DNA of 64,000 nucleotides from Candidatus Margulisiibacteriota bacterium (lineage in GTDB: Bacteria > Margulisbacteria > Marinamargulisbacteria > JBFWNS01). The position numbers and the translations under genes were made by a program. The notes beneath the pieces were generated by a model that had not been told where the DNA came from, did no database searches, and saw nothing but the letters and a program-made list of their open reading frames with translations. Location of the stretch: assembly GCA_050250935.1 (NCBI GenBank), contig JBFWNS010000002.1, forward strand, positions 134,433 through 198,432, read 5' to 3'. Shown one piece after another: positions 1 to 61,684 of this stretch (position 1 is the first letter of the stretch; the number at the start of each line of letters is the position of its first letter).

Positions 1-338
1 GCAATTTTTGCACTTGTAACAGCACCCGTCGTTAAGTCCCCGGCAACGATGGCATTGGACAAGTTCAATTTGCTATACGCAATTGCAGCCGCGCTGTTGA
101 TGTCTGCATTCGTGATGCTGTCATCCGCGATTTTAGCCGAAGTTACAGCACCGTCGGCCAAGTCAACTGCGACTATCGTTCCATCAGCAATTTTTGCACT
201 TGTAACAGCACCCGTCGTTAAGTCCCCGGCAACGATGGCATTGGACAAGTTCAATTTGCTATACGCAATTGCAGCCGCGCTGTTGATGTCTGCATTCGTG
301 ATGCTGTCATCCGCGATTTTAGCTGAAGTTACAGCACC
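1..338. repeat. Near-identical 186-nt (62-aa) coding tandem repeat in the fibre gene
   Basis: GCAATTTTTGCACTTGTAACAGCACCCGTC... starts at both 1 and 187 and stays nearly identical to about 152/338. Confidence 0.9.
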
Positions 339-3300
339 ATCCACGATTTTGGCCGTGCCAACTGTTCCGTCTGCAATTGAACTTGCCACCACACCCGTTA
401 AGCCGGCTCCACCACCCACAAAATTGGTAGCCGTTACAGTGCCATTGAAGTTTGAGGTCACTACCGTTGAATTAATTGAAAACGTTGTCCCAGTTAAGCT
501 TAAGCCTGTTCCATTGGTATAGGTGGTATCCACATCTGACGCTGGCGCCCACGCACTGCCATTCCATTTTAATGCCTGACCGGAGGTTGCAGATGCTTGG
601 GTAAGGGCTGAAGGGGCAATTGAAATTGCAGTAGAGGTTGCCGCTGTCAAACGTCCTTGGGCATCCACGGTTAATGCTGGCACAGTGGACGCTGATCCAT
701 AGCTCCCTGCTGTGACGGCGGTATTGGCCAATTTGGCTGCGGTTACAGCACCATCCACGATCTTGGCCGTGCTGACTGTTCCGTCTGCAATTGAACTCGC
801 CACCACACCTGTTAACCCTGCACCTCCACCCACAAAATTGGTAGCCGTTACAGTACCATTGAAGTTTGAGGTCACTACCGTTGAATCAATTGAAAAGGCT
901 GTGCCACTCAAACCAAGACCTGTACCTGCTGTATAGACATTTCCAGAATCTGCAGCAGGAGCCCACGCACTTCCATTCCATTTTAATACTTCACCAGAAG
1001 CTGCAGACGCTTGGGTAATGGCCGAAGGTGCAATTGAAATCGCGGTGTTGGTTACCCCCGTGATCTGACCTTGGGCATTCACACTAAAGGTAGGTACTGT
1101 CGCAGCCCCACCATAGCTACCCGCTGTAACACCCGATGCCGACAACGCTGCAGAGGCGGGTTCCCATTGGCTTGTGCTATTGTTCCATTGCAACACTTGG
1201 CCATTCGTTGGTGCCGTGCTGGCCACGGTTCGGCCTTGAAGGGTCGAGGCTGAAATTCCACCTGATAGCGTGTTGATGTTGGTTGAAGTAATCGCCAATT
1301 TTGAAAACGCAATCGAGGCTCCTGAAGCGATGTTCGTGTCGGTAATGGAAACAGGAACTAACGTTACACCCGTAATCTGACCTTGGGCATTCACACTAAA
1401 GGTGGGTACTGTCGCAGCCCCACCGTAGCTGCCGGCACTGACGCCAGCGCTGGCCAAGGAAAGAACACCACCAGCCAAACTTAGCCCAGTTCCCGCACTG
1501 AGGTTGGCGGTTGGTTCCCATTGGGCTGATGTCGCATTCCAATTGAGATACTGACCATTGGCCGGTGCAGCAGCCGAAATGGTTCTGCCTTGCAAGGTTG
1601 AGGCTGAAATCCCACCAGACAATCCATTGATGTTGGCAGAGGTGATGGCCAGTTTTGTAAAATCGATGGCTGCATTGCTGGCCACGTTGGCGTTGGTTAC
1701 AGCAATGGGGGTGTTGGTTACCGAGGTGACTTGACCTTGTTGATTAACCGCAAAAACGGGCACGCTTGTTGCCGATCCATAAATGGAAGGCGACAAACCG
1801 CTGATATCGGATATCGAAATGGCATTGGCACCGGAAATAGAAACCCCGGTTCCCGCAGTGTACGAAGTTCCTGCATCTGTTCCTGGCAACCAATTGCCGG
1901 CCGAACTATTCCATTTCAATACCTGACCATCGGTTGTACCGGATTGAATTCCCAATTTTCCGCTGGAAATGGTTAGCCCTGTTCCTTGAAGATCTGTAAC
2001 CGTTTTGCCAGACATTGCGATACCGCTAAGCAAAACGGTGCTGTTGATGGAAACCGTTGCACTTGAACCCACAACCAAATTGCCAGTCGACAGCGTGCTG
2101 CTGGCATCGGAACGCAGGAATGAAGACGAAGACAAACCGCCCACGGTACTGGCATCATTAACATTGGTTTGGGTGAAAACCAGTCCTGTACCCGTAGAGT
2201 TGACCTGCACATAGCTGTTGGCCACATAGGTTTTGTTTAGAACATCGGTTAAATTGATGAAGGACAACATGTTGTTGGTGGATGTAAATTCCAGTCGGGT
2301 TCCGGCAGAATTCACCCGAATAAAACCACCGGGATAGGTGCTTAACAAACCATTGTTGGGGGCATCGGTCAGACTCATAAAGGAGCTGGCGCCGCCATTA
2401 ACTTTGGCCCAAGATGTGGTGTCGATGTACTTTACAATCCCGCTGGAATCGACGGTCAACACTTTATTGTTGTCGGTTAAAGACACCAACGAATTGAGTC
2501 TGGATTCACCCGAAACCACCAGGGCACCATTGACATTTAAAGTAGAGCCCGCTGCTACACCCAAACTTGCTGCCGTTGATGCGCCCACAGTGGAATTGGC
2601 ATCGCTGCGCAATAAACTGGAAGCCGTTAGACCGGCCAAAGCGTTTGATTTATTCCAAGACGAGGTGTCGATATATTTAACAGTTCCATTTTCAACGGTC
2701 AGGACCCGATTGTTATCGGTCGAGCTAACCCCAGGATCGACATTGATGTTTCCTGAAACGTTCAATACCGTCAACGACCCCAATCCTGTGATGTTGGTAT
2801 AAGCGCCAGACACCATATTGGCACTGGTAATGGTGGTATTCGCAATTTGGGCGCCCGTGATCGAACCGGTTGCAATGCTGGAACTTGGAACAGATCCAGA
2901 AATTTTAGAAGCAGAAATGGGACCGACAATGTGACTGTCTTGAATAGCACCGGTGGCAATCATTCCCGAGGTAATAGATCCGGAGGCAATTTGCGATGCC
3001 GAAACCGTTCCAGACAAAGCACTGACAGCTGGCTTATTGGCAACATTGCTCCAATCTACGCTAAACGCTTGGTCGGAATAAGCCGATTTTAAAGCATATG
3101 GAACCGCCACAACTGGCACACGGACTTCTTGGTTGGTATCTAAAAAGGTAAACCCAAAATTTGCCGTGGGTTGATCCAACATCGTGGCATTAAAGGTGGT
3201 TGTTTTCCCCAATTCGGCCGTAAACGCACCATTGGTGAACTGCAGGCTTTGGGTTTCGGTCCAAAGCGCCACATTTGAAGAAGAGTACAGGGTAATTTTG

Positions 3301-3464
3301 ACCGATTTTAACCCGTTGATTAACCCGGTGTTACTGTCCGAGATGATGGCTTCGATTTTAACAGTCGAGGGCGTAGATGCCATAACCGCGTTGCCCAACA
3401 GCACAAAGCCCAGCAACGCCCCAATAATCCCCTTTACTACTGCCTTTTTCATCAAACTGGTCAT
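1..3464 (-). CDS. Giant secreted repeat-rich fibre/adhesin, phage tail-fibre-like (partial, runs off the left edge, >1150 aa)
   Basis: Absent from the ORF track because it has no stop in the window. AGGAG RBS then ATG at 3464 (MTSLMKKAVVKGIIGALLGFVLLGNAVMA, signal-peptide-like). The same frame reads sensibly at the window edge (...AAIAYSKLNLSNAIVAGDLTTGAVTSAKI). The N-terminal domain has LWTETQ..F.NGAF.AELG...RVPVVAVPYALKSA, followed by Ser/Thr/Ala/Gly-rich repeats. Confidence 0.85.
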   Translation of the reverse strand, partial: MTSLMKKAVVKGIIGALLGFVLLGNAVMASTPSTVKIEAIISDSNTGLINGLKSVKITLYSSSNVALWTETQSLQFTNGAFTAELGKTTTFNATMLDQPTANFGFTFLDTNQEVRVPVVAVPYALKSAYSDQAFSVDWSNVANKPAVSALSGTVSASQIASGSITSGMIATGAIQDSHIVGPISASKISGSVPSSSIATGSITGAQIANTTITSANMVSGAYTNITGLGSLTVLNVSGNINVDPGVSSTDNNRVLTVENGTVKYIDTSSWNKSNALAGLTASSLLRSDANSTVGASTAASLGVAAGSTLNVNGALVVSGESRLNSLVSLTDNNKVLTVDSSGIVKYIDTTSWAKVNGGASSFMSLTDAPNNGLLSTYPGGFIRVNSAGTRLEFTSTNNMLSFINLTDVLNKTYVANSYVQVNSTGTGLVFTQTNVNDASTVGGLSSSSFLRSDASSTLSTGNLVVGSSATVSINSTVLLSGIAMSGKTVTDLQGTGLTISSGKLGIQSGTTDGQVLKWNSSAGNWLPGTDAGTSYTAGTGVSISGANAISISDISGLSPSIYGSATSVPVFAVNQQGQVTSVTNTPIAVTNANVASNAAIDFTKLAITSANINGLSGGISASTLQGRTISAAAPANGQYLNWNATSAQWEPTANLSAGTGLSLAGGVLSLASAGVSAGSYGGAATVPTFSVNAQGQITGVTLVPVSITDTNIASGASIAFSKLAITSTNINTLSGGISASTLQGRTVASTAPTNGQVLQWNNSTSQWEPASAALSASGVTAGSYGGAATVPTFSVNAQGQITGVTNTAISIAPSAITQASAASGEVLKWNGSAWAPAADSGNVYTAGTGLGLSGTAFSIDSTVVTSNFNGTVTATNFVGGGAGLTGVVASSIADGTVSTAKIVDGAVTAAKLANTAVTAGSYGSASTVPALTVDAQGRLTAATSTAISIAPSALTQASATSGQALKWNGSAWAPASDVDTTYTNGTGLSLTGTTFSINSTVVTSNFNGTVTATNFVGGGAGLTGVVASSIADGTVGTAKIVDGAVTSAKIADDSITNADINSAAAIAYSKLNLSNAIVAGDLTTGAVTSAKIADGTIVAVDLADGAVTSAKIADDSITNADINSAAAIAYSKLNLSNAIVAGDLTTGAVTSAKI
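328..1430. repeat. Diverged 414-nt (138-aa) coding repeat plus a further partial copy in the fibre gene
   Basis: Matching anchors at 328/742, 547/961, 610/1024 and 655/1069. CCTTGGGCATTCACACTAAAGGT recurs at 1069 and 1381. Confidence 0.85.
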
Positions 3465-3501
3465 AACCGATCTCCTTTTGGTGTGTTTTATCTGTTTGAA
3501 C

Positions 3502-4425
3502 TTAGAAATTTAAGCTCATCGAAAAATAATTTTTATTGTCATACAACAAATGCTCACTTTTTTCGTAAGCATAGTTGAGCTGTAACATGTCCAACTTAAA
3601 GCCAAGACCCAAGGTTACATTACTTTTAATGTTGTTCAACGCCAAGAACTGTTTATACCCGGCCGTTAATTGAATATAAGGTAAGAATGACGGCGTATAG
3701 TTCACACCCGCTGCAAACAAGTTTTTGCCTTGTTTGAGGGAACACTGCCCCATCACAGCAACATCATTATAGGTGTATTTGACACCCCCAACCACTTGGG
3801 TTGGAAGGGTTTCTACGCCATCGTCGATTTGAATTTGTTGGCCAGAAAAAATATTTCGGGCAAACAACGAAAGTTCGATGGGGTTAAGATCGTAGGTTGC
3901 ACCCAGGTCCATGTTGGTGGCTTTTCCTGAAAAGGTATAAAAAGAAGTGCTGTATTGAACCAAAGAAGCCCCCACCGACAGATTCTTTGCTATCGTATTT
4001 TCGTACGAGATCTTGGTGATTTGATTTTTATAATCAAAGTTAAGGTTGGAATAGAATTGGCTGTTCCCCGTAGAAATTTCGGTGAAGGGGATATTTGAAA
4101 CCGCTGCTTCCATATAGCCAAAGCCAATTTTACCAATGGGCGTTGTGGTGGCCACAGCAATACTGGTATAGGTTAGTTCGTTCATGAAGGTTGTTGTGAA
4201 GACCGAAACAGAACCACGGTTAACCCTTTTGAGCGCCGCGGGGTTATCGAAAATGCTGTTGGCAGCACTGCCATACCCTTCGATATTGCCCATCCCAATC
4301 ATTTCGGCAGAAGAACCCACTTCCGAAATTAAAAAGTATTCGGCAGCCATGGGCTTGGAGGTCAAAAGCAAGACCCCGACAAACACACAGGATAAAAACG
4401 TAAGGCCGTGTTTTAGTTGTTTCAT
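3502..4425 (-). CDS. PorV/PorQ-like outer-membrane beta-barrel
   Basis: Signal peptide; N-terminal GSSAEMIGMG...ANSIFDNPAAL motif; amphipathic beta strands; C-terminal aromatic residue (YFSMSLNF). Confidence 0.7.
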   Translation of the reverse strand: MKQLKHGLTFLSCVFVGVLLLTSKPMAAEYFLISEVGSSAEMIGMGNIEGYGSAANSIFDNPAALKRVNRGSVSVFTTTFMNELTYTSIAVATTTPIGKIGFGYMEAAVSNIPFTEISTGNSQFYSNLNFDYKNQITKISYENTIAKNLSVGASLVQYSTSFYTFSGKATNMDLGATYDLNPIELSLFARNIFSGQQIQIDDGVETLPTQVVGGVKYTYNDVAVMGQCSLKQGKNLFAAGVNYTPSFLPYIQLTAGYKQFLALNNIKSNVTLGLGFKLDMLQLNYAYEKSEHLLYDNKNYFSMSLNF

Positions 4426-4979
4426 GGGCGCACCACAAACTTTCCTTTACCAATAACTTTGCCGTCATTGATGATCAGGAAGAAATACACACCGGAATAC
4501 AAATCAAAATTGTTAAAGTCGCTGCGGTTCAAGGGCACTGCGTTCCAGCCCAAGGCACCGCCATTGAGCTGACCAGCACTAAAGTTTTTTCGGTATATTT
4601 CGCTGGCCAACATGTCGTAGATTCGAATTTCGATGTTGGCAGGGAGTGTTAGGGTATATCCGATTTTGGGGACGTCAGACAATTTTGCGGGGTTGGGATA
4701 AACCAGAGGGGTTCCGGTTAGCTCGGCTCCGGCCACACTGGAACTGCCAATACTGCTCACTTGTACAGCATTCTCGTCGGCCAAAATTCCGTATCCAAAT
4801 TTATAAACAACAAGTGACGAACTACCAGTGTCTTGGTAGGCCGTAAAAAAGTCGTGAATGACGTACGAATAGGAGGTGTAGATCAAAGACGAGGATTGGG
4901 CAAAAACGGGCGCAGCCGCCAGCCCCAAACTCATCAGACACAGTAGAATCGCTTTTTTCATAATGGATTGAACTCTCAA
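4422..4979 (-). CDS. Small secreted protein consisting mostly of a T9SS type-A-like C-terminal sorting domain
   Basis: Signal peptide (MKKAILLCLMSLGLAAAPVFA); PLVYPNP...IRIYD...SGVYF...GKGKFVV pattern. The start may be the internal ATG. Confidence 0.7.
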   Translation of the reverse strand: MRVQSIMKKAILLCLMSLGLAAAPVFAQSSSLIYTSYSYVIHDFFTAYQDTGSSSLVVYKFGYGILADENAVQVSSIGSSSVAGAELTGTPLVYPNPAKLSDVPKIGYTLTLPANIEIRIYDMLASEIYRKNFSAGQLNGGALGWNAVPLNRSDFNNFDLYSGVYFFLIINDGKVIGKGKFVVRP

Positions 4980-5176: not shown

Positions 5177-5254
5177 TTAATTGGATGTTTGAAACACATC
5201 GATAACGGGCAGATACAACACATAGAATCCAATCGCCTCGGGGGGGGACTAGAC

Positions 5255-6127
5255 GTGAAATGTATCGGTGTGTTGGTTATTATGATGTGTTTACTGGGAT
5301 CCGTAACCACCATTTCTGCAGTTGATTTTACAGATATGATTGGGGTCTCCAGCACTGCAAAAGGATTTGCAGTCACCGCTGAACAAAACAATATCGATGC
5401 CAGCTTAAAAAATCCCGCCGCCTTGGGCATCATGAGACGCATTCACTTCAAAACCAGCTATGGTAGCCTTTTTGATTCTGCCTATTACACCGCCAATTTA
5501 AGCATCGGAATTCCCATTAACACCAATTGGAGCGCGGCCCTTCAAGTGCCTACCAAAAGGATTCAAGACATTCCTTTGAGTGTGAATCAAGGGGGTCAAG
5601 GGGTGGCCATTGGGTCCTTTAACGATTCAGAAACCGTTGCCAATTTTACCCTTTCCCACCGAATCGGGATTCTGACTTTGGGCGCAGCTGCAAACTATCG
5701 CAGCCGAGAATTGTACACCGCCACTGCCCAAGGCGTTGGGTTTGATGGGGGGTTGATGCTCGCAACCGGTCCACTTACCGTAGGGGCCAGCATTCGCAAC
5801 ATTGGCAAAACAACCCTAACCTGGAGCACTGGCACCACCGAAACCATTCAAGAACAATACAATGTCGGCATCGCCTACCAGCTGATGCCCATGGTAAAAC
5901 TATTGGCGGACACAACCTTGGGCACCACAACCGAAACCAACTTGGGCACGGTTTTTAGCCTGAACCCCTCGTTGAGATTTTTGGCCGGCATCCACGATGT
6001 GACCTCGAGTAAACAACTTGCCTTGGGGACAGAATTGGAATTGGACAGACTGACCGTTTCCTTTTCCTATCAAACCCATGACGAATTGGGAACCAGCTAC
6101 AAAGTGGGAGTTTCATATGCATACTAA
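5255..6127 (+). CDS. PorV/PorQ-like outer-membrane beta-barrel
   Basis: GTG at 5255 after a G-rich RBS gives a clean signal peptide; IGVSSTAKGFA...DASLKNPAAL motif; ends LGTSYKVGVSYAY. Confidence 0.7.
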   Translation: MKCIGVLVIMMCLLGSVTTISAVDFTDMIGVSSTAKGFAVTAEQNNIDASLKNPAALGIMRRIHFKTSYGSLFDSAYYTANLSIGIPINTNWSAALQVPTKRIQDIPLSVNQGGQGVAIGSFNDSETVANFTLSHRIGILTLGAAANYRSRELYTATAQGVGFDGGLMLATGPLTVGASIRNIGKTTLTWSTGTTETIQEQYNVGIAYQLMPMVKLLADTTLGTTTETNLGTVFSLNPSLRFLAGIHDVTSSKQLALGTELELDRLTVSFSYQTHDELGTSYKVGVSYAY

Positions 6128-7670
6128 GTTGAGAATGGTGTTGTGGATTGTTGCTGTGTTGGTTGTGCCAACGCTTGTTTTTGGCGAAGACGGTATTCCA
6201 GGTATGGTTGTGTTTGAAACCAAAGGGTCTCAAACCCAAATTGCATCGGTATCGTCCAACGGCTCGGTTTGGCGCAAGGCCAAACGGGTTGGGCAGTATG
6301 CTAAAAAAAGATCTGGTAAAACAGTTGCAGATGTTTCTTCGGAAGGCACCACTTATGTTATCGAACTGGAAAATGCTGCAGACACAACCGATGTACTGCA
6401 ACAACTTAAAGCAGATCCCACGATTCGCTATGCAGAACCCGTCTATCCCGTAACGGTATCTGGAATTCCCAATGACCCCTATTTCCATAACCAAACCTAT
6501 TTGCAACAACCCTCGCTAGAGCCGTTGTTGTTGGCTACGGGTTCGGCTTCGATTGTGGTGGCAGTCGTGGATACCGGCGTGGACACGAGCCATGTCGACT
6601 TACAAGGCGAAATTCAAGATGGGGGCTACAATTTTTATGGCTCTATTTGGGGGCTACAAAACGACGATTATATGGATTATCACGGCCATGGCACCCATTT
6701 GTCGGGTATTATTGCCGCCGACCAAAACAATGGCATTGGCATTAGTGGGATAAATAACACGGTCAAAATTCTGCCCGTTCGGTTTTTGGACAGTGGCGGA
6801 CGGGGCAATCAGCTCGATGCGGCTGCTGCCATTCGGTATGCGGTGGATCACAACGCTCGCATTATTAACTGCAGTTGGGGATTTACGGCTTTTAATCAGG
6901 CTTTAAAAGATGCCTTTGATTATGCGGCCCAAAATGGGGTTATCGTTTTTGCAGCTGCTGGCAACTCCAATACAGCCATTACCGAGTACCCAGCCGGATT
7001 CGACAGCGTCATTTCGGTGGCCTCGGTGGATACCTCGTTGTCTCGGTCTTATTTTTCGAGCTATGGGGCCAAAGTTTTGTTTTCGGCCTTTGGGAACAGC
7101 ATTTTCTCTTTGGCGCCACACAACCAATATGCCTATATGAGTGGGACGTCTCAAAGCACAGCGGTGATGAGTGGGATTGCCGCCAAGGCCCTTTCGATTA
7201 AACCCAGCCTAACCAAAGCCCAGTTGATCGACAGCTTTATTCAATCCGCAAGCAACACCACACGCAACGATTCGACAGGTTATGGCGTCGTACAAGGGAC
7301 ATCGTTGTTAAGCAGCCTCACCGGCAGCACGCCAGAGACCATCGAGCAGCACTATTCAGTTAGCACTGCCCTTTCCGAACCCAGCATTGAGAACGTCTTG
7401 AATTTTCCCAACCCTGTACCCGCCAGTGGCACAACCTTTGGGTTTTCAGCCAACAGTACCGGAACCCTCGAGCTGCTGATTTTTGACACCCGCGGCACCC
7501 AAGTGAAGCGTTTGAACGGCGTTGTCCTGGCCACCTACAATACCTATGCTTGGGACGGAAAATCCGAAAGTGGCGAGGTTCTTCCCAATGGCACCTACTT
7601 TTATGTGGTTAAAGCAGATCTGGGAACCAAAACCCTTAAAGCCAAAGGCAAGCTGGCGATTCTGCGCTAG
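6117..7670 (+). CDS. S8 (subtilisin-like) serine peptidase with a C-terminal T9SS/FlgD-Ig-like sorting domain
   Basis: VAVVDTG, HGHGTH, AAAGN and SGTS catalytic motifs; C-terminal NFPNP...IFD..G..VK...WDGK...LPNGTYFY...KGKLAILR. Confidence 0.9.
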   Translation: MHTKLRMVLWIVAVLVVPTLVFGEDGIPGMVVFETKGSQTQIASVSSNGSVWRKAKRVGQYAKKRSGKTVADVSSEGTTYVIELENAADTTDVLQQLKADPTIRYAEPVYPVTVSGIPNDPYFHNQTYLQQPSLEPLLLATGSASIVVAVVDTGVDTSHVDLQGEIQDGGYNFYGSIWGLQNDDYMDYHGHGTHLSGIIAADQNNGIGISGINNTVKILPVRFLDSGGRGNQLDAAAAIRYAVDHNARIINCSWGFTAFNQALKDAFDYAAQNGVIVFAAAGNSNTAITEYPAGFDSVISVASVDTSLSRSYFSSYGAKVLFSAFGNSIFSLAPHNQYAYMSGTSQSTAVMSGIAAKALSIKPSLTKAQLIDSFIQSASNTTRNDSTGYGVVQGTSLLSSLTGSTPETIEQHYSVSTALSEPSIENVLNFPNPVPASGTTFGFSANSTGTLELLIFDTRGTQVKRLNGVVLATYNTYAWDGKSESGEVLPNGTYFYVVKADLGTKTLKAKGKLAILR

Positions 7671-16009: not shown

Positions 16010-17842
16010 TTAATCATCATCGATATCACTATCACTGGAAGCGGCATCATAGGTGCCGTAATCATCAGCGGCATCATCGACAGTGTCATCATCAGCGACA
16101 TCTGCGGCATCATAGGTGCCGTAATCATCAGCGGCATCATCGGCAGTGTCATCATCTTCCAATAGGTGTTGTTGTAATTCAGTTTTTAAACGTCTGTCTT
16201 CTCTGAGTTCTATTGTTCTGGAATAGCCCGTACCATGATTTTGTTTCCTGATATGGTCTCTGCCTCTAGGCCCAACATGATGTTGTGTTGCCTCTTTAAC
16301 AAATCCAATAGCCCTATCATCACCCAACTCGTTTAATAAACTTAGAACATCTGGAAAGCCTTGCAAGATGTGCATTATTCTGAGTCGGTCCCTACTTGGT
16401 AGATCCTGAACGACCTCACAAAGGAATAACCGAATTAAACGATCAACAACACGGTTGTAACCATACATTTGTGCTAGTTCCAGTGGCGACTTGTTTTCTA
16501 TATAAATTTCTAAAACAGTCCGAATTGCACCTTGTTCATTATTATCCCTACAAGCATACACCATGCCGTCAATCAAAGCTTGGGCAACGGCAGGATCAAG
16601 ACCATTTAAAAGTTCTACCACATTTTCTGCAGCATCATCACTGCTCAGTGCGTAGTCTTTTAAAAGTTTCTGCACCTCTCTATTTTGGGCGAGGCTCACT
16701 TTGGCATCCGCATTGGTCTCATCTTGCACAAAGGCTATTAATTTGTCCGCAATGTGCTCCCATACACCCACTTGGGTGACTTGGGCCAAAACTAAGAATA
16801 GATTGGCTTTCTGGGCATCCTCCCCACAAGCACCCACCATACCGTCAATCAAAGTTTGGGCAACAGCAGGGTCAAGACCATTTAAAAGTTCTACCACATT
16901 TTCTGCAGCATCATCACTGCTCAGTGTGTAGTCTTTTAAAAGAGTTTGCACATTATTATCTTGGGCAAGTGCTGCTTTGTGAGCACCCGTGGTACTAGTA
17001 GCTTGCATAAAGGCTATTAACTTTGCCGCTATGTGCTGCCATACACCACCTTGGGTGACCTTGGCCAAAACTTGGATCAGCCGAACTTTTTGATCCCCAT
17101 CATCCCCACAAACATCCACCATGCCGTCAATCAAAGTTTGGGCAACTGCAACTTCAACCTTGTTTAAATGCGCTACCACTGTTTCAGCAGCATCATCGCC
17201 ACTCAACGTGTAGTCTTTTAAAGGGGCGCCGTTCACAGCCCCTGCTTTTACAAGAGCCCGTCGAATTTTTAGAGCAAGGGCTTCTAGGTCTGTAAAACTG
17301 TTTACTGGGATTTTACGTGCAAAAGCCTCATGGGCCGCAAATTGGTCCACAACGGCTTGGGGTTCTCGGGCGAGGAAGGCTTTAATCCAATCTACGTTTT
17401 TTTCGGCCAAAACTTTTTGGATCAATGCGGCGTCTATAACAAGTTCTTTATACATTTTGTGCAAACCCTCTTCCACGGTGCGAGGGGTTTGTTGGCTAGC
17501 AGCTTCGTACCAAAGCGAATCTTGGGGCAAAACACACATAAGATAGGATGCGGCACCAAAGGCATTGAAGGCAGAATGGACTACTTGGCTACAGCGTTCT
17601 ATCTCTTTTTGAACGGATTCAAGTTTAAGCCTAGCTTCTCCTAAGTCTCTACCTCTCTTAACCGCTGCCATGGTACTTTCATTCTTAGGTTTCACCTTGA
17701 GCTCTTCGACCCTAGCTTCGCATTGGGTTCTGTCTTCCAAAAGTTTACGCCATTGCATTGCGGTTTTTATAATTACTGGTGGGGACAAAGTGGGAGGGCT
17801 TGACGGATAATGTGGCTTTGATTTTGCAATAATTTTTTTCAT
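16010..17842 (-). CDS. Hypothetical protein with an N-terminal coiled coil, three 92-94 aa repeats and an Asp-rich tail
   Basis: 610-aa ORF with RBS AAGGA; repeats LKDY.LS.DDAAE.VV..LN.....VAQ.LIDGMV. Confidence 0.85.
   Translation of the reverse strand: MKKIIAKSKPHYPSSPPTLSPPVIIKTAMQWRKLLEDRTQCEARVEELKVKPKNESTMAAVKRGRDLGEARLKLESVQKEIERCSQVVHSAFNAFGAASYLMCVLPQDSLWYEAASQQTPRTVEEGLHKMYKELVIDAALIQKVLAEKNVDWIKAFLAREPQAVVDQFAAHEAFARKIPVNSFTDLEALALKIRRALVKAGAVNGAPLKDYTLSGDDAAETVVAHLNKVEVAVAQTLIDGMVDVCGDDGDQKVRLIQVLAKVTQGGVWQHIAAKLIAFMQATSTTGAHKAALAQDNNVQTLLKDYTLSSDDAAENVVELLNGLDPAVAQTLIDGMVGACGEDAQKANLFLVLAQVTQVGVWEHIADKLIAFVQDETNADAKVSLAQNREVQKLLKDYALSSDDAAENVVELLNGLDPAVAQALIDGMVYACRDNNEQGAIRTVLEIYIENKSPLELAQMYGYNRVVDRLIRLFLCEVVQDLPSRDRLRIMHILQGFPDVLSLLNELGDDRAIGFVKEATQHHVGPRGRDHIRKQNHGTGYSRTIELREDRRLKTELQQHLLEDDDTADDAADDYGTYDAADVADDDTVDDAADDYGTYDAASSDSDIDDD
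16041..16156. repeat. 63-nt coding duplication (DDTxDDAADDYGTYDAA)
   Basis: GCGGCATCATAGGTGCCGTAATCATCAGCGGCATCATCG at 16041 and 16104. Confidence 0.9.
16561..17222. repeat. Three coding repeats with 276-nt and 282-nt spacing
   Basis: CCAT(G/A)CCGTCAATCAAAG anchor at 16561, 16837 and 17119. Confidence 0.9.
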
Positions 17843-17853
17843 GGGAGGTTCCT

Positions 17854-20800
17854 TTAACTTTCGGTCGAGGAGTCAGTTCTAGCATCGTCGTTATCTGCAT
17901 CAGACCTATCATCGGCGGCTGAATTAGATCGGTCTAAAACCACCACGCTACTAGCTGAAACGCGCAATGCAGCAGAGGCATGGCTAGGTGTTCGAGTTCG
18001 GGCCGTTGTAGCAGCTGTAGCAGAACCGGGCTCAGCGGCGGCAGCCATTGTCGAGGCACGTTTACGACACGCAAGCTCGAACACGTCCGGATTGTCCCTT
18101 TGAATTTGTTCTAGATACGCTATTAAACGATCCTGCTGGGCTGCGTCTAGAACACCCATTGCGTATTTCACCAGCTCTGTTGTCCATAGTTTGGGATGTT
18201 GGCGGATGTAGGTTGTAATGCTGGACTCTTGGTGAGGGGTAGTGGGCCGAGAGTGCAAGGCAGCTGAAGACACGGGGGCTATTGGTAGAAAAGGTCCTGT
18301 AGATGCCGCTACCGCAGCTTGGATTGCAACAATGGGTGTAAAGCTTATAGGGCTTGCTGGAGATGTTGATGAAGGCCTAAGCACCTGCGCCGATTGAGGA
18401 GATTGGACGAGTTGCGCTAACAATTGGGTTTGATCATTCAGAGCTAAAGGCGACACTCTCCCGGCAGAGGTAGCTGGGAGATCGGTCCTTGCTGGGAGAG
18501 CTTTAACCAAAATATTCAAGACTCTCTCATTATGCAGACCAAAAATAAAGGCTTTGTTATTTTCGGTCAGTAATTCAAGCCAATCTTTAAGCGTGAAGCT
18601 CAACTCTATGCTTGCAGGACGGGTGTCGGTAGTACTTTCTACTTCCGGCATAAGAAGTGGCCAACTCACGTATTCTTGCATTAATTTTAAAATCTGAATG
18701 CGTTCTATCAAATTAAAATCGCGGGTTAATCCTACTCGACTGAGATGCTCATCGCTATAAAAACTTGGACATTTTCCCAGGACACTGATCAAATCCATTT
18801 CCAGCCGACCCAAGCACTCAATAACCGCTGGTTCGAAACGGATATCAACCCCCACAGCAACCCAGTCTTTCACTACCTGCACCGCTTGTTCTTCTGGAGA
18901 AGTTTTATCATGAGGTACACAAAGCGCGTCCAAAGTTTGATCTAGAACCGTTAACCCTTCAGAAGCCATCACCACTGCAGCGGAGGCTACCAAGGTATGA
19001 AGGGGGTTACGATCTAAAGCCTCTCGTATCCGATCACACGTCTGAGAATCCGCGCCAGTCGTTTCCACAAAACCATCCTCAAGCCATTGGTCAACATCGA
19101 AGCTATGAAATTTAACAAAAAAAAAGTCGCCTATTACTTGACTGGTTTGTTCACTCTCCTCTCTGGAAAAAGCTTTTTGAAGTAGCAAGGAAAGATGTTG
19201 AGCGTACAGCATGCTGGCGCCTTGTGTTTGGCGAAGTAAGTTCAAGCCGTCGGCCAAGGATTGTCCAATCTCTGCAAGTCGCTCTATTTGGGTGATCACT
19301 GTTGTACGGGTTTCAACCCATTCTTCGAACTCGCAAAGCCATACTTTAACTCGTTGGGCTCTGACTGCAGGTGGTTTTTTCTGAAAGGCAGGACTAAGTA
19401 ACTCGTTTCGGGTTGTTTGAAGTTTGTTAAAAGTTTCTTCAAACGTCCCAACCACTTCTGCAAGATGACGCTGTTGACCCGGATAGGCCACTGTAATGGC
19501 GCCTTGCATATCCATCATTGAAACCAGATGTTGTTCGGACGGCCTCACCCTGTCTGGGGTGGCTCGTAATACACGATGTGGCGTTACGTTTACTGCAGTG
19601 GCGGGGAATTCGGTGGCAGACAAAGACAGTGGCGTTGAATGTTGAGGAACCAATCTCGAAGCCATTGGAGTCAAATCTAAACCAACTCCGGCAGCAGTAC
19701 TATCCCCTACATCTGAATCTGAAACAGATGATAAACTTCTACTTAATCTTGATGTCATCGACGCAGAGAAATCCATCCTATGGGTGCTGGATTCAAATTG
19801 TAAGTGAGATTCTACTGTAGTTAAACGATCAAAAGCAGGGGAAGCAGCCGGAGTTCTAACACCATGTCGCAAAGCTGTAGCAGCACGCACGACCGTTACA
19901 GCTACATTGAGCCTTTCAACAGGACCTCGACGATGAAACAGAGATAGCCCCCAAGCCCTTACCTCCCTGACTAATGCGTTACCACTGTCCTCTTTTCTTT
20001 GTAATTCCCACTTATTGGTTGATAACCCTTGTGCAAGCGTTTCGCCATGGCGGGCTAAGAAATCAGAAACTTTCTGACCCAGTGTTTGGCATAGCGTCTC
20101 CAGTGCATCTACGCAATCCTGAAGAGAAACCTGGGAAAGCAGTTTATCTTTCTCAATAAATTGAACAATCTCCAAGTCATTACCGGCTATAATTAGACCC
20201 GCTAAAATTTTAAGGGCGAGTTGAACATTTTGTTGGGGGGAAACGAGTTCAGAATTAACAATCAAACGCCACCGATGGCATTGGTCTAGGTTAAAGTCAG
20301 GCCCGTCCAATGCGCGTTGGATATTCGAGACAGATCGTGTATGCCTCAAAAGGGCGATTGCGTGTAACCAATAGGGTTCAGAAGGCGATTCGACAAGCGT
20401 TTGCAGGCCATCGGAAACCAACCGTTGAGCAGTTTCCTGCCAAAGCCACTCCGCATGGTTCATATCAATTGAGGTGTGATGCAACAGGGCTTCAACACCT
20501 CTGTACAGGCTTTCAAATTGGGTAGGCCCAAACCTTAATTGTTCAAAACCAGGTTTATTTTGAGCTAAACCAAGAATAATGAATGGGGCTAGTCGCGTAA
20601 ACACTTCTCCTGTGGCATAGCGCGCACTATCAACAATAACTGTGCAGGTGTTCGCTAAAAGTTCGTTAAGTAGCTTTTTTCCTTCAGAACACGTTTGCAA
20701 ACTCCCTACAATGCGAACAACCGCTTCTTCCTTGACCCCCTTACCTTCGACACAATGCATTAGAAATTTTTCTTGGAATGTTCGCGCTCTCACCCCCGTT

Positions 20801-21381
20801 GTCCCCTCGTTAGCCTTGGTTATTAGCGCAGTTACAACCACGTCGAGTTTTTCTGGAGACACCAACTGTGTAACCGTTTCCAAAATAGCAAAGAATCTTT
20901 TTGCGCTGATTTCCTTGCCATCACTGGTTTTGCAAAACACCATCAACCTGGCCAACGCCCCGACTGCATTGTCATCGTTTTGTATTGCGGCTCGATACTC
21001 CATCAACTGGGCTGCAGGTAATAGGGCTGCAACAGCTTGTTTTTTAAATTGGAATTTGGCTGTAATCTTTCCCCAGAATCCATTGCGATCACCAGAAACA
21101 TCCAACTGAAGCACCCGAACACAAGCAAAAAGATCCGATAGTGAAAGATGTTTGTTATCTAAAAACTTCCCTAGCAATATCTTTTTTTGAGAATCTGGGG
21201 TGGTTTCCGGAATGGATTGTTGATCTTGTCTCCGAATGGCTGCTAGAAGGGTTCTAGGATTCATGGCGTCAAGTTCAATCAAAACTTCATGCTCTCGACC
21301 AAAACTATCCATTAGACGCACTGAATCGGCAGATCGCGCAAAAGGCATTCTTGCCGCTACTATCTTTTTTAACCCCACCAT
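17854..21381 (-). CDS. Large orphan hypothetical protein (1175 aa)
   Basis: Long ORF with strong RBS (AAGGAG); helical regions separated by Ser/Thr/Pro/Ala-rich low-complexity segments; acidic C-terminus; no signal peptide and no motif recognised. Confidence 0.85.
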   Translation of the reverse strand: MVGLKKIVAARMPFARSADSVRLMDSFGREHEVLIELDAMNPRTLLAAIRRQDQQSIPETTPDSQKKILLGKFLDNKHLSLSDLFACVRVLQLDVSGDRNGFWGKITAKFQFKKQAVAALLPAAQLMEYRAAIQNDDNAVGALARLMVFCKTSDGKEISAKRFFAILETVTQLVSPEKLDVVVTALITKANEGTTGVRARTFQEKFLMHCVEGKGVKEEAVVRIVGSLQTCSEGKKLLNELLANTCTVIVDSARYATGEVFTRLAPFIILGLAQNKPGFEQLRFGPTQFESLYRGVEALLHHTSIDMNHAEWLWQETAQRLVSDGLQTLVESPSEPYWLHAIALLRHTRSVSNIQRALDGPDFNLDQCHRWRLIVNSELVSPQQNVQLALKILAGLIIAGNDLEIVQFIEKDKLLSQVSLQDCVDALETLCQTLGQKVSDFLARHGETLAQGLSTNKWELQRKEDSGNALVREVRAWGLSLFHRRGPVERLNVAVTVVRAATALRHGVRTPAASPAFDRLTTVESHLQFESSTHRMDFSASMTSRLSRSLSSVSDSDVGDSTAAGVGLDLTPMASRLVPQHSTPLSLSATEFPATAVNVTPHRVLRATPDRVRPSEQHLVSMMDMQGAITVAYPGQQRHLAEVVGTFEETFNKLQTTRNELLSPAFQKKPPAVRAQRVKVWLCEFEEWVETRTTVITQIERLAEIGQSLADGLNLLRQTQGASMLYAQHLSLLLQKAFSREESEQTSQVIGDFFFVKFHSFDVDQWLEDGFVETTGADSQTCDRIREALDRNPLHTLVASAAVVMASEGLTVLDQTLDALCVPHDKTSPEEQAVQVVKDWVAVGVDIRFEPAVIECLGRLEMDLISVLGKCPSFYSDEHLSRVGLTRDFNLIERIQILKLMQEYVSWPLLMPEVESTTDTRPASIELSFTLKDWLELLTENNKAFIFGLHNERVLNILVKALPARTDLPATSAGRVSPLALNDQTQLLAQLVQSPQSAQVLRPSSTSPASPISFTPIVAIQAAVAASTGPFLPIAPVSSAALHSRPTTPHQESSITTYIRQHPKLWTTELVKYAMGVLDAAQQDRLIAYLEQIQRDNPDVFELACRKRASTMAAAAEPGSATAATTARTRTPSHASAALRVSASSVVVLDRSNSAADDRSDADNDDARTDSSTES

Positions 21382-26183: not shown

Positions 26184-27632
26184 ATGCCCAATTACAAATT
26201 TATTTCTATCCTAGTACAACTACCAGAAACACCAAAAGAACGTGTTTTTGAAACAACCATTCCCCAAAACCTTAATTTACACAGGGGTTTAAAGCCGTTT
26301 ATTAAAGCCCTAACTCAAACCGCTGCACAAAACACGCTAGATTGTTTAAGGGGCGCCACTTCCCCTGCCCACCACGACACCGTCTGCCAGGCTCTAGAAA
26401 GAAGTCAGTCTGCTCATCTTCATGACTTTGAAGCCAAGCTAAAACAACCCGAAGTACTTTTTGCCCATTCAAAGTCTTTAAGGGGATTAACACGGCACGG
26501 CACTCATCTTGAAGGCAGTAACAGCATTTTTATGCTGATTGCCCGTGGACAACAACTCTTCTTACATGCCCAAAGGGCACCGTCTTCAAGCTTAAACAGA
26601 TCGTGTCAACGGTTAGCCGACGCCTTGATAGAAGCCGCACTTTGGACCCTTCAAATAGCCTTCACAAAAGCCGTTTTTACAAATGTGCCAGAAATTTTTC
26701 CACCTGATACAGAAAAAACCGTACTTGGGACACTTCTTAAGGCAAGATTCGAAAGTGCAAAGGCCAGCTGCCAAACCCCCATTCTTATTCCAATAAGTAA
26801 TGACACACACCAAATTTACTTTGGGGTAAAAATCAGTGATGCCAACGAAATAGAGGTTACTTATTATGAACTTGCCGGCAAAAAATATCCGCCAGACACC
26901 CCTGATGCCGCTACCTTAAAAGGCTCAAAAACAAAATTACAACGCTTGATTTTTCACCCTCAAAGCCCCGAATGGGCGATCTTTTTAAGGCAGGCAACAC
27001 TACTTATCGCACAAGCGTCTAGCTCTTTTGATGCATTTCAAACCTATCTTGATACCTTACCCCCTTCAAACCAAAGCTTAACCAACCGTACTTTTAATGT
27101 TCAAACCGTCGGAAATTGCGCATTTAAAGGTCTCTCGGCAGTCATTCATGAGGCCCTTGGTGACGGGTATAAAGGCTTTCGAAAAGCCGAACACGATCAC
27201 TACCAAAATCAACTATCCCGATCGCAAAAGCGTTATTATGGCAGAGAAAAATTTACGGTCCGTACTCAATTTCTTATTTTTGCAGGCCTAGGTGTTCCTT
27301 GCGACATATTGGAAAGTCAATATCATCGGCGCATTTCACCAGAAAGTGCACAACGCTTGGTTAGACTTCGCCACCCAAAATGGAAAGACAGGATGGCCGC
27401 CTACTTAACCCGTTATTGTAAAAGCTTACTCGATGGCTCCGGCCAAAATTATCCTACATATTTAAACCTGTTAGGGCTTCAAAATCTCGAAAAACTTACC
27501 TCTAAAACGATCAATCGTCATGTAAGGGAAGCACAGAATGCCTTTATTATTTTAAAACTCGCCCCTATTCCATTGCGGATTTTATATACAAACCCAGATG
27601 AAGCGATAAAGTACTATGAGTGTGATGATTAG
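26184..27632 (+). CDS. Orphan hypothetical protein, candidate cysteine protease (His...Glu...QxxGNC)
   Basis: 482-aa ORF, visibly AT-rich; THQIYFGV, YYELAG and VQTVGNCAFK motifs. Confidence 0.7.
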   Translation: MPNYKFISILVQLPETPKERVFETTIPQNLNLHRGLKPFIKALTQTAAQNTLDCLRGATSPAHHDTVCQALERSQSAHLHDFEAKLKQPEVLFAHSKSLRGLTRHGTHLEGSNSIFMLIARGQQLFLHAQRAPSSSLNRSCQRLADALIEAALWTLQIAFTKAVFTNVPEIFPPDTEKTVLGTLLKARFESAKASCQTPILIPISNDTHQIYFGVKISDANEIEVTYYELAGKKYPPDTPDAATLKGSKTKLQRLIFHPQSPEWAIFLRQATLLIAQASSSFDAFQTYLDTLPPSNQSLTNRTFNVQTVGNCAFKGLSAVIHEALGDGYKGFRKAEHDHYQNQLSRSQKRYYGREKFTVRTQFLIFAGLGVPCDILESQYHRRISPESAQRLVRLRHPKWKDRMAAYLTRYCKSLLDGSGQNYPTYLNLLGLQNLEKLTSKTINRHVREAQNAFIILKLAPIPLRILYTNPDEAIKYYECDD

Positions 27633-59268: not shown

Positions 59269-60198
59269 TTAGTATTTCATCGAAAACGAAATGTAGTGTT
59301 GGGATTCTTGTTGGAAGGCATCGGTGGTGTCGTAGCAATATTCCACGATTACCGGTTGCAGATCCAAGCTCAGCCCGATGGTGACAGAACCCCGGGTGGT
59401 GGTGCTGGTTTTGGGGATTTCTTTGTAGCCCAAACTCAGCCCAACCAATTTCGATTCCAGGGGATAAACTTTAAGACCCATTCCAGGCATGACTCGAGCC
59501 ACTGCCGAGCTGCGTTTGAGTTGTAAATACAGGTCGCCATTCATAAGGGGGAAGCTGTTGCTTTTGTAGCCAACACCCCATTCCGAGGCCAAACCTTCTT
59601 GGGCCCCATTGCTATAAAGCACTTTGTTGCCCAATACGTTTCGTCCAAATAATTGCCAATCGCCCACTGCACTGGTGTAGCGAATCCCCACCCCAAAATC
59701 GAACCCGTTTCCGGTGAGGGTTGCCAGGGTTCGGGCATAGTCGGTTACAGAGATACCAATGTTCAAATTGTCGCGTTGATAGTTCATTCCCGCCACATAT
59801 TGGGCACTGGAATAGGCAAAGGTTCCCACCGAAATGGCTTCGTTGCTGTTGTTTGTGGCGGTTGCATCAATGCCCCCTACCCCTTCGTAGACAACACCAA
59901 ACCCAAGGGTGATATCGGCTCTGGGTTTGATACTGACGGCACCCGTCATGTACGTGGTGTCGCCACCAAAATAGGTGGTATAGAAGGTGGACAAGCTGTT
60001 GCCAGCATAAGCTAGCCCCGTGGGACTTTCAAACACTACAGCCGCCGATTTGGTAAAACCCGAAACGTTGCCAATGCCAATCATGGCTGCAGAGGTTCCA
60101 ATTTCTGAAATATCTCTGAAATACTCTGCTTGAATCGAACCAGAAAGTCCGGCCAGTACGCCAATCAGAACCAGTGCTACTTTACTTTGTTTCAACAT
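59269..60198 (-). CDS. PorV/PorQ-like outer-membrane beta-barrel (paralogue of 3502-4425)
   Basis: AEYFRDISEIGTSAAMIGIGNV matches AEYFLISEVGSSAEMIGMGNI; ends HYISFSMKY. Confidence 0.7.
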   Translation of the reverse strand: MLKQSKVALVLIGVLAGLSGSIQAEYFRDISEIGTSAAMIGIGNVSGFTKSAAVVFESPTGLAYAGNSLSTFYTTYFGGDTTYMTGAVSIKPRADITLGFGVVYEGVGGIDATATNNSNEAISVGTFAYSSAQYVAGMNYQRDNLNIGISVTDYARTLATLTGNGFDFGVGIRYTSAVGDWQLFGRNVLGNKVLYSNGAQEGLASEWGVGYKSNSFPLMNGDLYLQLKRSSAVARVMPGMGLKVYPLESKLVGLSLGYKEIPKTSTTTRGSVTIGLSLDLQPVIVEYCYDTTDAFQQESQHYISFSMKY

Positions 60199-60264
60199 GG
60201 GAAAACCCTTTTTAACGTTGTGATGATGATGTGCATATACCCACTCTAAAACGACTTAAAACAT

Positions 60265-61533
60265 TTATTCTGGCAACACCGCAAATTTTCCCTTTCCCAG
60301 GACCTTGCCATTGTTCAACAGCACGTACATATAGACCCCGCTGGCCCAGCCTTCGCCAATAACGGCTTTGTTGATGACCACGCGGTTATAGCCCTGTTTT
60401 CCGCCTTCGTCCACCCCGCTTTTAAAGGTTTTTCGATAGATTTCGGTCCCCCAACTGGTGTAGACCCGCAGATCCATATCGGCCTCTTGGTTCAACCAAT
60501 AGCCAATAAAGGTTCCCGAGCTGAATTTAAAGGGATTGGGGACATTCAAGGGTCTACCGGCCGAGCCTTGAGCAGAAGCTCCTGTATCAAGGGTGACATT
60601 CAGTGTGGCCGGAGCCCCAATATGCCCCACGGTATCATAGGCAAATACGCTAAAATAGTAGGTATCATCAGGCAGGGTTGTGGCCACGGTCGCGGTCAGG
60701 CCATTCAGACTCACCCCAGTTCCTTGGGTGATGTCGATTGGAAAATCGGTGGTCGAACGCCGAACCACAATACCTTCCAAACTGAAATCTACGGGGGGAA
60801 CCCAGATCAGTTCTACGGAATTTCCAGATACAATGCTGATTAGGTTAGACACTTTGTCTGGCGCCGTGATGTCGATGGAAATATTAATGGTTGCGGGGGC
60901 CCCTATATTTCCTACCGTGTCATAGGCAAAAATGCTGTAATAATAGGTTCCATCTGGAACCGCTTCTTCCATAGTGGCGGTGGTGCCATTCAACGTAATC
61001 GATACGCCTTGGGTGGGGGTTGTCGGATAAACATCGTTGGCCCTGCGCACCACAATCCCCGAAAAATCGGGGTCCAAAGGCGGCACCCAAATCAGTTGAA
61101 CCACATTCCCCGACACAATCGAAAACAAACTAAAAACTTTGCCTGGAGCGGTTGTATCAACCGTGGCGCTTTGGGTAGCCGGTACACTGATATTTCCGGT
61201 GACATCGCTTGCAAAAATGGCATAGTAATACAACCCATCGGGAACCGAGCTCAGCGTGATGGACGTTCCAGTGATGTTTTGAGACACCACATTGCCCGAG
61301 GCGATGGTTTGGGGATAATTCGTGGTACTCACCCGAATGGTGGTGGAGGCAAAATCGTCGTCTGTAGGATTGGTCCAAGTTAAAACAACCGTGTTTCCGG
61401 AAGCCGTCGCCGTAAATTGAGTGGGTGGCCCTGGGGGCGTGGTGTCCGGTCCGGTTGCAAAAACAGACCCCATCAAACCCAAACTGAGCAGCACAGCAAA
61501 AAGACCGCTTCGCCCCCATTGTTTTAACAACAA
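60265..61533 (-). CDS. Secreted protein with three fibronectin-III-like repeats and a T9SS type-A-like C-terminal domain
   Basis: Three units D.T.P......GN.V.L.W..P.D...YY..FA.D..G; tail PLNVPNPF...SGVY.Y...GKVLGKGKFAVL. TTG 61533 follows the RBS AGGGGA. Confidence 0.8.
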   Translation of the reverse strand: MLLKQWGRSGLFAVLLSLGLMGSVFATGPDTTPPGPPTQFTATASGNTVVLTWTNPTDDDFASTTIRVSTTNYPQTIASGNVVSQNITGTSITLSSVPDGLYYYAIFASDVTGNISVPATQSATVDTTAPGKVFSLFSIVSGNVVQLIWVPPLDPDFSGIVVRRANDVYPTTPTQGVSITLNGTTATMEEAVPDGTYYYSIFAYDTVGNIGAPATINISIDITAPDKVSNLISIVSGNSVELIWVPPVDFSLEGIVVRRSTTDFPIDITQGTGVSLNGLTATVATTLPDDTYYFSVFAYDTVGHIGAPATLNVTLDTGASAQGSAGRPLNVPNPFKFSSGTFIGYWLNQEADMDLRVYTSWGTEIYRKTFKSGVDEGGKQGYNRVVINKAVIGEGWASGVYMYVLLNNGKVLGKGKFAVLPE

Positions 61534-61684
61534 AACAGTCCCCTTTAACAAAATTGTAGGATGAAAGCTGGACGTTTATACCCGTTAAGTAGGGTTTTCA
61601 AACATCCTTGGGCAGTACGGTTTAACTGGAATTTTGACAAGCCTACTAGAAGATCGCCCTAAAAGGAAGTATAGTTTTTCCTTC

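What the first reader, a model, noticed from the sequence alone, without database searches (positions are those of the whole stretch)
3464..4979. CTD-only protein, barrel and fibre in one operon: candidate fibre anchoring module
Seen: 4979-4422 overlaps 4425-3502 by 4 nt, and the fibre ATG follows 37 nt after the barrel stop. The first protein has only about 60 residues between its signal peptide and its CTD, so it carries almost no cargo. Inference: it may be an adaptor that docks on the barrel through its CTD and grips the conserved N-terminal domain of the fibre, which would explain how such fibres attach to the outer membrane.
Basis: inference. Interest (0 to 1): 0.7.

Follow-up and report, generated by a model that had tools for sequence, protein, structure and literature searches.

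The report
Tiny adaptor tethering bacterial surface fibres
Three adjacent genes encode a phage-like fibre, an outer-membrane barrel and a tiny protein with a secretion tag, a set repeated across this uncultured bacterial group, and the tiny protein likely ties the fibre to the barrel, which would explain how a widespread class of surface fibres is held on the cell.

Summary
Observation confirmed: a 179-185 aa protein (signal peptide, ~60-aa extension, T9SS type A CTD) overlaps a PorV-like barrel gene by 4 nt, and a CTD-less fibre gene follows 37 nt later. The triplet occurs three times in this Margulisbacteria genome. In its class, 67 of 108 small CTD genes adjoin a fibre gene, against 0 of 16 large CTD cargo genes. 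The fibre's N-domain links through relatives to the Bdellovibrio MAT N-domain, whose anchor is unknown. In other phyla the gene beside such fibres carries a 3x19-residue peptide fused to different surface anchors (T9SS CTD, PEP-CTERM, dockerin), as expected of an adaptor. Best reading (0.6): the small protein docks its CTD on its own barrel and grips the fibre base. Against: no binding was modelled, this extension does not match the 3x19 peptide, extension and fibre show no co-divergence, about half of the fibres are orphans, and no canonical T9SS motor or sortase was found. Ten literature searches found no description. The scan has noted this cassette on other DNA at least eight times.

The parts
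4422..4979 (-). Small secreted CTD protein, candidate fibre adaptor (185 aa from TTG 4979; 179 aa from ATG 4961)
4716..4898 (-). N-terminal extension, residues 28-88: two strand-like segments (SLIYTSYSY, SLVVYKFGY) and a Ser-rich linker; proposed fibre-binding part
   Evidence: sequence; alignment of 67 fibre-adjacent homologues; boundaries by eye
4425..4703 (-). T9SS type A-like C-terminal domain, residues 93-185
   Evidence: TIGR04183 28.5 bits, above cut-off; PF18962 below cut-off
3502..4425 (-). PorV/PorQ-like outer-membrane beta-barrel, 307 aa, overlapping the CTD gene by 4 nt
   Evidence: NF033709 E 5.7e-13; AF2 pLDDT 93.8; best Foldseek hits are chains of T9SS translocon structures, TMq 0.71
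3472..3477 (-). Shine-Dalgarno-like AAGGAG in the 37-nt gap before the fibre
   Evidence: sequence
3..3464 (-). Secreted tail-fibre-like protein (1154 aa in the window; continues past an N gap outside it to a Peptidase_G2 chaperone domain and coiled coil); no CTD
3093..3380 (-). Fibre N-terminal beta-sandwich domain ending in VPYA (residues 29-124); MAT-N-like through relatives

Best explanation
The three genes form a conserved cassette in which the small protein likely acts as an adaptor that is exported by its T9SS-type CTD, stays bound by that CTD to its own PorV-like barrel, and would hold the base of a trimeric fibre that has no CTD of its own. Shown: the gene order, the domain identities, the barrel fold, the specific linkage of small (not large) CTD proteins to fibre genes, and CTD-barrel co-divergence. 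Inferred: (1) all three proteins cross the inner membrane by Sec; (2) the CTD is not cleaved, since no PorU catalytic region was found, and is retained on the barrel as PG1035 is on PorP; (3) the fibre trimerises with its C-terminal Peptidase_G2 chaperone; (4) the extension adds beta-strands to the fibre's N-terminal sandwich domains, probably one adaptor per trimer; (5) binding is not strictly cognate, so one adaptor-barrel pair could also serve orphan fibres; (6) export uses one of the three large outer-membrane proteins with weak SprA similarity.
For: The triplet occurs 3 times among the genome's 5 fibre genes and 4 small CTD/barrel pairs. In the class, a fibre-N gene adjoins 67 of 108 evaluable small CTD genes (56 in CTD-barrel-fibre order, 30 genomes; 10 with the fibre directly after the CTD gene), against 0 of 16 large CTD cargo genes. 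A small CTD gene was listed in 36 of 38 fibre-positive class genomes and 4 of 9 fibre-negative ones. CTD and barrel similarities co-vary across 54 triplets (Spearman 0.67, partial 0.61). The barrel model's best matches are T9SS translocon chains. The fibres lack a CTD motif and the window's ends in PF11962 above cut-off. In other lineages the gene beside the same fibre domain carries a peptide with a 19-residue threefold period right after the signal peptide (137 of the top 150), fused to a T9SS CTD, PEP-CTERM, dockerin/EF-hand, TSP3 or other tails. In an independent Bacteroidota sample, 5 of 6 new peptide hits had a fibre-N gene adjacent. Precedent for CTD-on-cognate-barrel anchoring: PMC9143113 and PMC12618676 (abstracts). 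The MAT N-domain is expected to bind an unidentified surface element: PMC10769870 (passages).
Against: The window's extension and those of its class do not match the 3x19 peptide: hhalign probability 0.06, no match in G000, strand PSSMs at shuffle level, 0 of 67 above 5 bits with a 195-sequence profile. Only a phi-x-x-G-[FY] motif is enriched (17 of 66, 5.7 expected; kin are not independent). So the cross-phylum evidence is an analogy of position. Extension and fibre-N similarities do not co-vary (0.03; partial -0.05, 1667 of 2000 permutations as high), though the extension aligns poorly; fibre-barrel is only 0.16. 55 of 105 listed fibre genes have no small CTD gene nearby, including all 17 in family f3, where the small CTD genes also have no adjacent barrel. 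26 of 108 small CTD genes stand alone. CTD-plus-barrel pairs without a fibre are common in this genome (S8 protease, FN3 protein, a 1070-aa and a 273-aa protein). No GldK or GldM match and no full-length SprA were found.
Confidence: 0.6

Rival explanations
1. The small protein binds the fibre only in transit. It is a detachable export tag or assembly chaperone that lends its CTD to a CTD-less trimer; the barrel is a dedicated shuttle, and the fibre is then released or anchored otherwise.
For: The same linkage data. Fibres lack a CTD. Cognate barrels act as shuttles needed for secretion in F. johnsoniae (PMC12618676, abstract). Bacteroidota versions have a CTD and no barrel within 1.5 kb.
Against: In other phyla the fibre-adjacent peptide is fused to retention tags (PEP-CTERM, dockerin/EF-hand, TSP3), which suits lasting anchoring. 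No PorU catalytic region was found to remove the CTD.
Confidence: 0.17
2. The CTD protein and barrel are a generic surface-display pair, like the S8-protease/barrel pair next door. The fibre gene shares the operon for co-regulation and binds something else.
For: Most PorV-like barrels in the genome sit by a CTD protein. There is no extension-fibre co-divergence. About half of the fibres are orphans. The extension is poorly conserved.
Against: Large CTD cargo genes adjoin a fibre in 0 of 16 cases. In 10 loci the fibre follows the small gene directly. A protein with almost no cargo has little else to display.
Confidence: 0.14
3. The barrel itself grips the fibre N-domain (an Ig-like sandwich, like a CTD), and the small protein is a plug or chaperone of the barrel.
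For: The barrel lies immediately before the fibre in 56 loci. Fibre-N is predicted as a beta-sandwich, with a T9SS CTD structure among many weak matches (Z 5.5, not above background). Extension similarity tracks the barrel (0.39) more than the fibre (0.03).
Against: Outside Margulisbacteria the fibre loci examined had the peptide gene but no PorV-like barrel. Fibre-barrel co-variation is weak (0.16).
Confidence: 0.09

Closest known systems
Bdellovibrio bacteriovorus MAT (mosaic adhesive trimer) fibres (PMC10769870; NCBIfam NF053851 Bdello_MAT_N)
   Same: Signal peptide, conserved beta-rich N-domain of about 100-130 aa, long phage-like shaft, variable tips, several paralogues per genome. 29 of 35 aligned relatives of the window's N-domain match NF053851 at E<=0.05; two paralogues in this genome match at E 2-5e-4.
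   Different: The window's own domain does not match the model directly and no copy passes the cut-off. The chaperone is Peptidase_G2 rather than S74. No anchor is described for MATs, whereas a CTD adaptor and barrel are encoded alongside here.
T9SS type B CTD cargo with cognate PorP/SprF barrel (PG1035-PorP, SprB-SprF; PMC9143113, PMC12618676)
   Same: A CTD protein encoded beside its own barrel, proposed to stay on the surface by binding it, independent of PorU.
   Different: Here the CTD is type A-like and the barrel PorV/PorQ-like. The CTD protein has almost no cargo, and the displayed protein is a separate CTD-less fibre. The phylum lacks recognisable GldK, GldM and PorU.
PorQ-PorZ and PorV-PorU pairs of the Porphyromonas T9SS attachment complex
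   Same: A type A CTD retained on a PorV/PorQ-family barrel.
   Different: PorZ and PorU are large enzymes of A-LPS conjugation; this protein is 160 aa when mature and is linked to fibre genes.
CPR Pam pilus tip protein PamT (PMC13278184; NF058579)
   Same: 95 of 142 proteins bearing the cross-phylum 3x19 peptide match the PamT model at E<=0.001; the paper notes a tail-fibre-like gene co-localised with pam operons.
   Different: The paper treats PamT as a truncated-Ig tip pilin and does not link it to the fibre in the passages read. The window's extension matches neither PamT nor the peptide.

Membership tests
T9SS type A cargo | C-terminal type A sorting domain | tested here: met
   TIGR04183 28.5 bits, cut-off 23; Pfam PF18962 18.7 of 27, below cut-off
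T9SS type A cargo | Sec signal peptide | tested here: inconclusive
   basic-hydrophobic-VFA pattern by eye; no predictor run
Canonical T9SS | SprA/Sov translocon | tested here: inconclusive
   TIGR04189 hits only a 30-100 aa segment in three 1007-1721 aa proteins, 19-26 bits of 200
Canonical T9SS | GldK/GldM (PorK/PorM) ring and motor | tested here: inconclusive
   no match in a 96% complete genome; the GldM search rang in no control genome either; GldL and GldN not searched
Canonical T9SS | PorU sortase | tested here: not met
   NF033707 matches only at model positions 945-1094
PorV/PorQ family | Family HMM above cut-off | tested here: not met
   NF033709 49.1 of 90 bits
PorV/PorQ family | About 14-stranded barrel of PorV/FadL type | tested here: met
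   AF2 pLDDT 93.8; top Foldseek hits 8gl6_F and 6h3i_F, TMq 0.70-0.71; that chain F is PorV is recalled
Type B CTD + PorP/SprF pair | Type B CTD and PorP/SprF barrel | tested here: not met
   no TIGR04131 match for the small protein and no PorP/SprF model for the barrel; PF13585 only E 0.024
MAT fibres | Conserved N-terminal domain (NF053851) | tested here: inconclusive
   window protein: no match; 29 of 35 relatives match at E<=0.05; paralogues 20-21 of 60 bits
MAT fibres | Homotrimeric phage-like shaft | tested here: inconclusive
   PHROG tail-fibre matches and PF11962 chaperone; trimer not modelled
MAT fibres | Surface exposure and adhesion | not testable with these tools
   uncultured organism
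Cross-phylum 3x19 fibre-adjacent peptide (PamT-N-like) | SxxYxL..GGG / TxGQ / YxLxxGF repeats | tested here: not met

The most novel reading that the evidence does not exclude
MAT-like trimeric fibres across many bacterial phyla are attached by one principle: a short strand-donating peptide, in its common form a 3x19 pseudo-threefold repeat, plugs into the fibre's N-domain trimer and is fused to whatever anchor the lineage owns (T9SS CTD, PEP-CTERM, dockerin, a CPR pilus tip). The window holds a diverged version, served by a private PorV-like barrel in a stripped-down T9SS-like pathway of a Cyanobacteria-related phylum.
Probability: 0.45. Interest if true: 0.85.

Novelty: new variant of a known kind. 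Interest (0 to 1): 0.66.

Why it matters
The MAT paper leaves the surface element that holds these fibres unidentified. This cassette names a testable candidate and a general rule: fibre N-domain plus small adjacent adaptor plus lineage-specific anchor. The families are large: 7,268 clusters for the peptide, and 2,211 of 7,997 scored candidates for the fibre domain. It would also show export or display of a CTD-less trimer through a CTD-bearing partner, and T9SS-like parts working in a phylum without the recognisable motor and sortase. A short peptide that captures a trimer could be a useful surface-display tag.

Tried and rejected
Complex prediction (fibre N-domain x3 with extension 28-90) was not available: the queue was full and nothing was folded, so there is no verdict. 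Fibre N-domain monomer model (pLDDT 82): no Foldseek match at E<=0.001, best VIA-align Z 6.9 (rmsd 3.5, 82 aligned), which is background; no sequence match in the PDB. Homology of the window's extension to the 3x19 peptide was tested four ways and not found. Co-divergence of extension and fibre was not found. The metagenome scan with a Bacteroidota fibre gave 1 locus, not analysed. The promoter/terminator scan gave no usable signal upstream of the operon. Phage origin was considered and set aside: the fibre has a signal-peptide-like start, and its neighbours are housekeeping genes. No Bdellovibrio name appeared among the listed, named hits. PMC12750041 and 10.1101/2023.11.21.568195 (passages) held nothing on this cassette. 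One of three supplementary files of PMC10769870 could not be read and might bear on the N-domain.

Full report
Observation. The minus strand carries three genes: 4979-4422, 4425-3502 and 3464 to the window edge. The first two overlap by 4 nt, and the third starts 37 nt later behind AAGGAG. The small protein has a type A CTD at residues 93-184 (TIGR04183 above cut-off) and about 60 residues between the by-eye signal peptide and the CTD. The second gene matches the PorV/PorQ family below cut-off. Its model is a confident beta-barrel (pLDDT 93.8) whose best structural matches are chains of T9SS translocon structures (TMq 0.71 and 0.70). The third is a tail-fibre-like protein. It continues across a 100-N assembly gap to a piece with a Peptidase_G2 chaperone domain and has no CTD motif at its end. 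The organism belongs to Margulisbacteria, going by the taxa of the nearest Atlas cluster and the titles of related records.

Own genome. There are five fibre genes with this N-domain (one has an internal stop) and four small CTD/barrel pairs, all with the 4-nt overlap. Three pairs are followed by a fibre. Other barrels pair with larger CTD proteins: an S8 protease, an FN3 protein, and 273-aa and 1070-aa proteins. So CTD-plus-private-barrel is a general habit here. GldK and GldM were not found, PorU matched only by its C-terminal part, and SprA matched only short segments of three large proteins.

Neighbourhood test in the class. A search of 55 genomes with the small-protein alignment listed 150 matches and left 52 weaker ones unlisted. 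I fetched 140 of the 144 non-self rows. Eight truncated or broken rows were set aside (three of them had a fibre hit), and eight more lacked enough downstream DNA. Of 108 small CTD genes in 46 genomes, 67 adjoin a fibre-N gene: 56 in CTD-barrel-fibre order in 30 genomes, 10 with the fibre directly after, one with the fibre before. 73 adjoin a barrel and 26 stand alone. Of 16 large CTD cargo genes in 12 genomes, none adjoins a fibre and 6 precede a barrel. Several 'no fibre' loci have, by eye, a diverged fibre-like gene after the barrel. Genomes are kin and the query was built from small proteins, so the Fisher p of 1e-6 overstates. From the fibre's side the link is looser. Of 105 listed fibre genes, 38 follow a small CTD gene directly, 9 lie within 20 kb downstream, 3 are at a contig edge and 55 are orphan or unknown, including all 17 of family f3. 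Still, 36 of 38 fibre-positive genomes list a small CTD gene, against 4 of 9 fibre-negative ones. Across 54 triplets, CTD and barrel similarities co-vary (0.67), fibre and barrel weakly (0.16), and extension and fibre not at all (0.03; the extension aligns poorly). The fibre domain was found in 93 of 121 genomes of the phylum.

Beyond the class. Of 25 loci from all GTDB species, 23 held the fibre domain and 15 also held a small gene with a conserved peptide after the signal peptide; 12 of these 15 helped build the profile. The peptide has a 19-residue threefold period (score peaks at -19, 0 and +19). It is fused to a T9SS CTD, PEP-CTERM, dockerin/EF-hand, TSP3 or short hydrophobic tails. Independent checks: among 80 further Bacteroidota genomes, 6 hits were found in 5 genomes, all 161-215 aa proteins, 5 with a fibre-N gene adjacent and none with a PorV-like barrel within 1.5 kb. 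In other Margulisbacteria classes, 24 of 30 fetched hits carry a CTD, 20 have a barrel in the locus, and at least 15 lie within 4 kb of a fibre (four were profile members). The peptide profile finds 7,268 clusters at 50% identity. The window's extension occupies the same position but does not match this peptide; its class shows two strand-like segments instead. I therefore treat it as an analogue or a very diverged form.

Mechanism. The best reading (0.6) is Sec export of all three proteins, CTD-directed delivery of the small protein to its own barrel, retention there without cleavage, and binding of the extension to the N-domains of the trimeric fibre. Only the genetics, the domain identities and the barrel fold are shown; no complex was modelled. 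The rivals are a transient export tag (0.17), a generic display pair with co-regulated fibre (0.14), and direct barrel-fibre binding (0.09).

Comparison with what is known. PMC10769870 (passages; two of three supplementary files searched) describes a conserved ~130-aa beta-rich domain after the signal peptide of all 21 Bdellovibrio MATs and says the surface element it binds awaits identification. A 2025 review names no anchor in the one MAT passage read (PMC12428579). NCBIfam's Bdello_MAT_N model matches 29 of 35 aligned relatives and two paralogues weakly, but not the window's domain, so the fibre is MAT-like and membership is unproven. PMC9143113 and PMC12618676 (abstracts) give the precedent of CTD proteins bound to co-encoded barrels, for type B CTDs and PorP/SprF. 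PMC13278184 (abstract and passages) describes PamT, whose model matches 95 of 142 peptide proteins, without linking it to the nearby fibre gene. Ten full-text searches found no description of the cassette or the adaptor; the library lacks most subscription papers. Eight earlier AI notes of this scan describe the same kind of cassette in other genomes. I saw them after my notes, and they are not independent evidence.

Verdict. The feature is real and conserved, a new variant of known kinds (CTD-on-cognate-barrel display joined to MAT-like fibres), with a concrete test for a stated open question. Interest 0.66.

Noticed in passing
window 5189-7670 (+): A second PorV/PorQ-like barrel and an S8 protease with a CTD, divergent from the cassette: a CTD cargo with its own barrel.
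   Followed up: partly
window 59269-61551 (-): FN3-repeat protein with the same CTD subtype plus a barrel of the cassette's subfamily, with no fibre gene after it.
   Followed up: partly
G000 C6:45678-50843, C3:105172-108354, C9:31978-35001: Three large outer-membrane-like proteins with a short SprA-like segment, two near PorV-like barrels: candidate reduced T9SS translocons.
   Followed up: partly
G000 C2:80298-102560 and C9:36858-54134: Giant proteins (7420 and 5758 aa) ending in a CTD, with internal repeats that weakly match the PorU C-terminal region.
   Followed up: no
L005:1186-4317 (G000 C8:68185-71316): Orphan fibre gene interrupted by one TAA near the end of its N-domain; pseudogene or assembly error.
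   Followed up: no
alignment A13 / NF058579: The cross-phylum 3x19 peptide matches the CPR pilus protein PamT model in 95 of 142 proteins; PMC13278184 notes a fibre gene near pam operons, so PamT might attach a fibre to the pilus tip.
   Followed up: partly
L121, L150, L152, L155, L156, L166, L168, L170, L175, L180 (family f3): Small CTD genes sit beside housekeeping genes, without barrel or fibre, although these genomes hold 4-10 fibre genes each.
   Followed up: no
L241, L242, L250, L253: Peptide-bearing proteins of 360-451 aa without a detected CTD in other Margulisbacteria classes.
   Followed up: no
window 16010-21381 (-) and 26184-27632 (+): Large ORFs of no obvious family with low-complexity Asp- or Ser/Ala-rich tails, possibly host-directed proteins; not scanned.
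   Followed up: no
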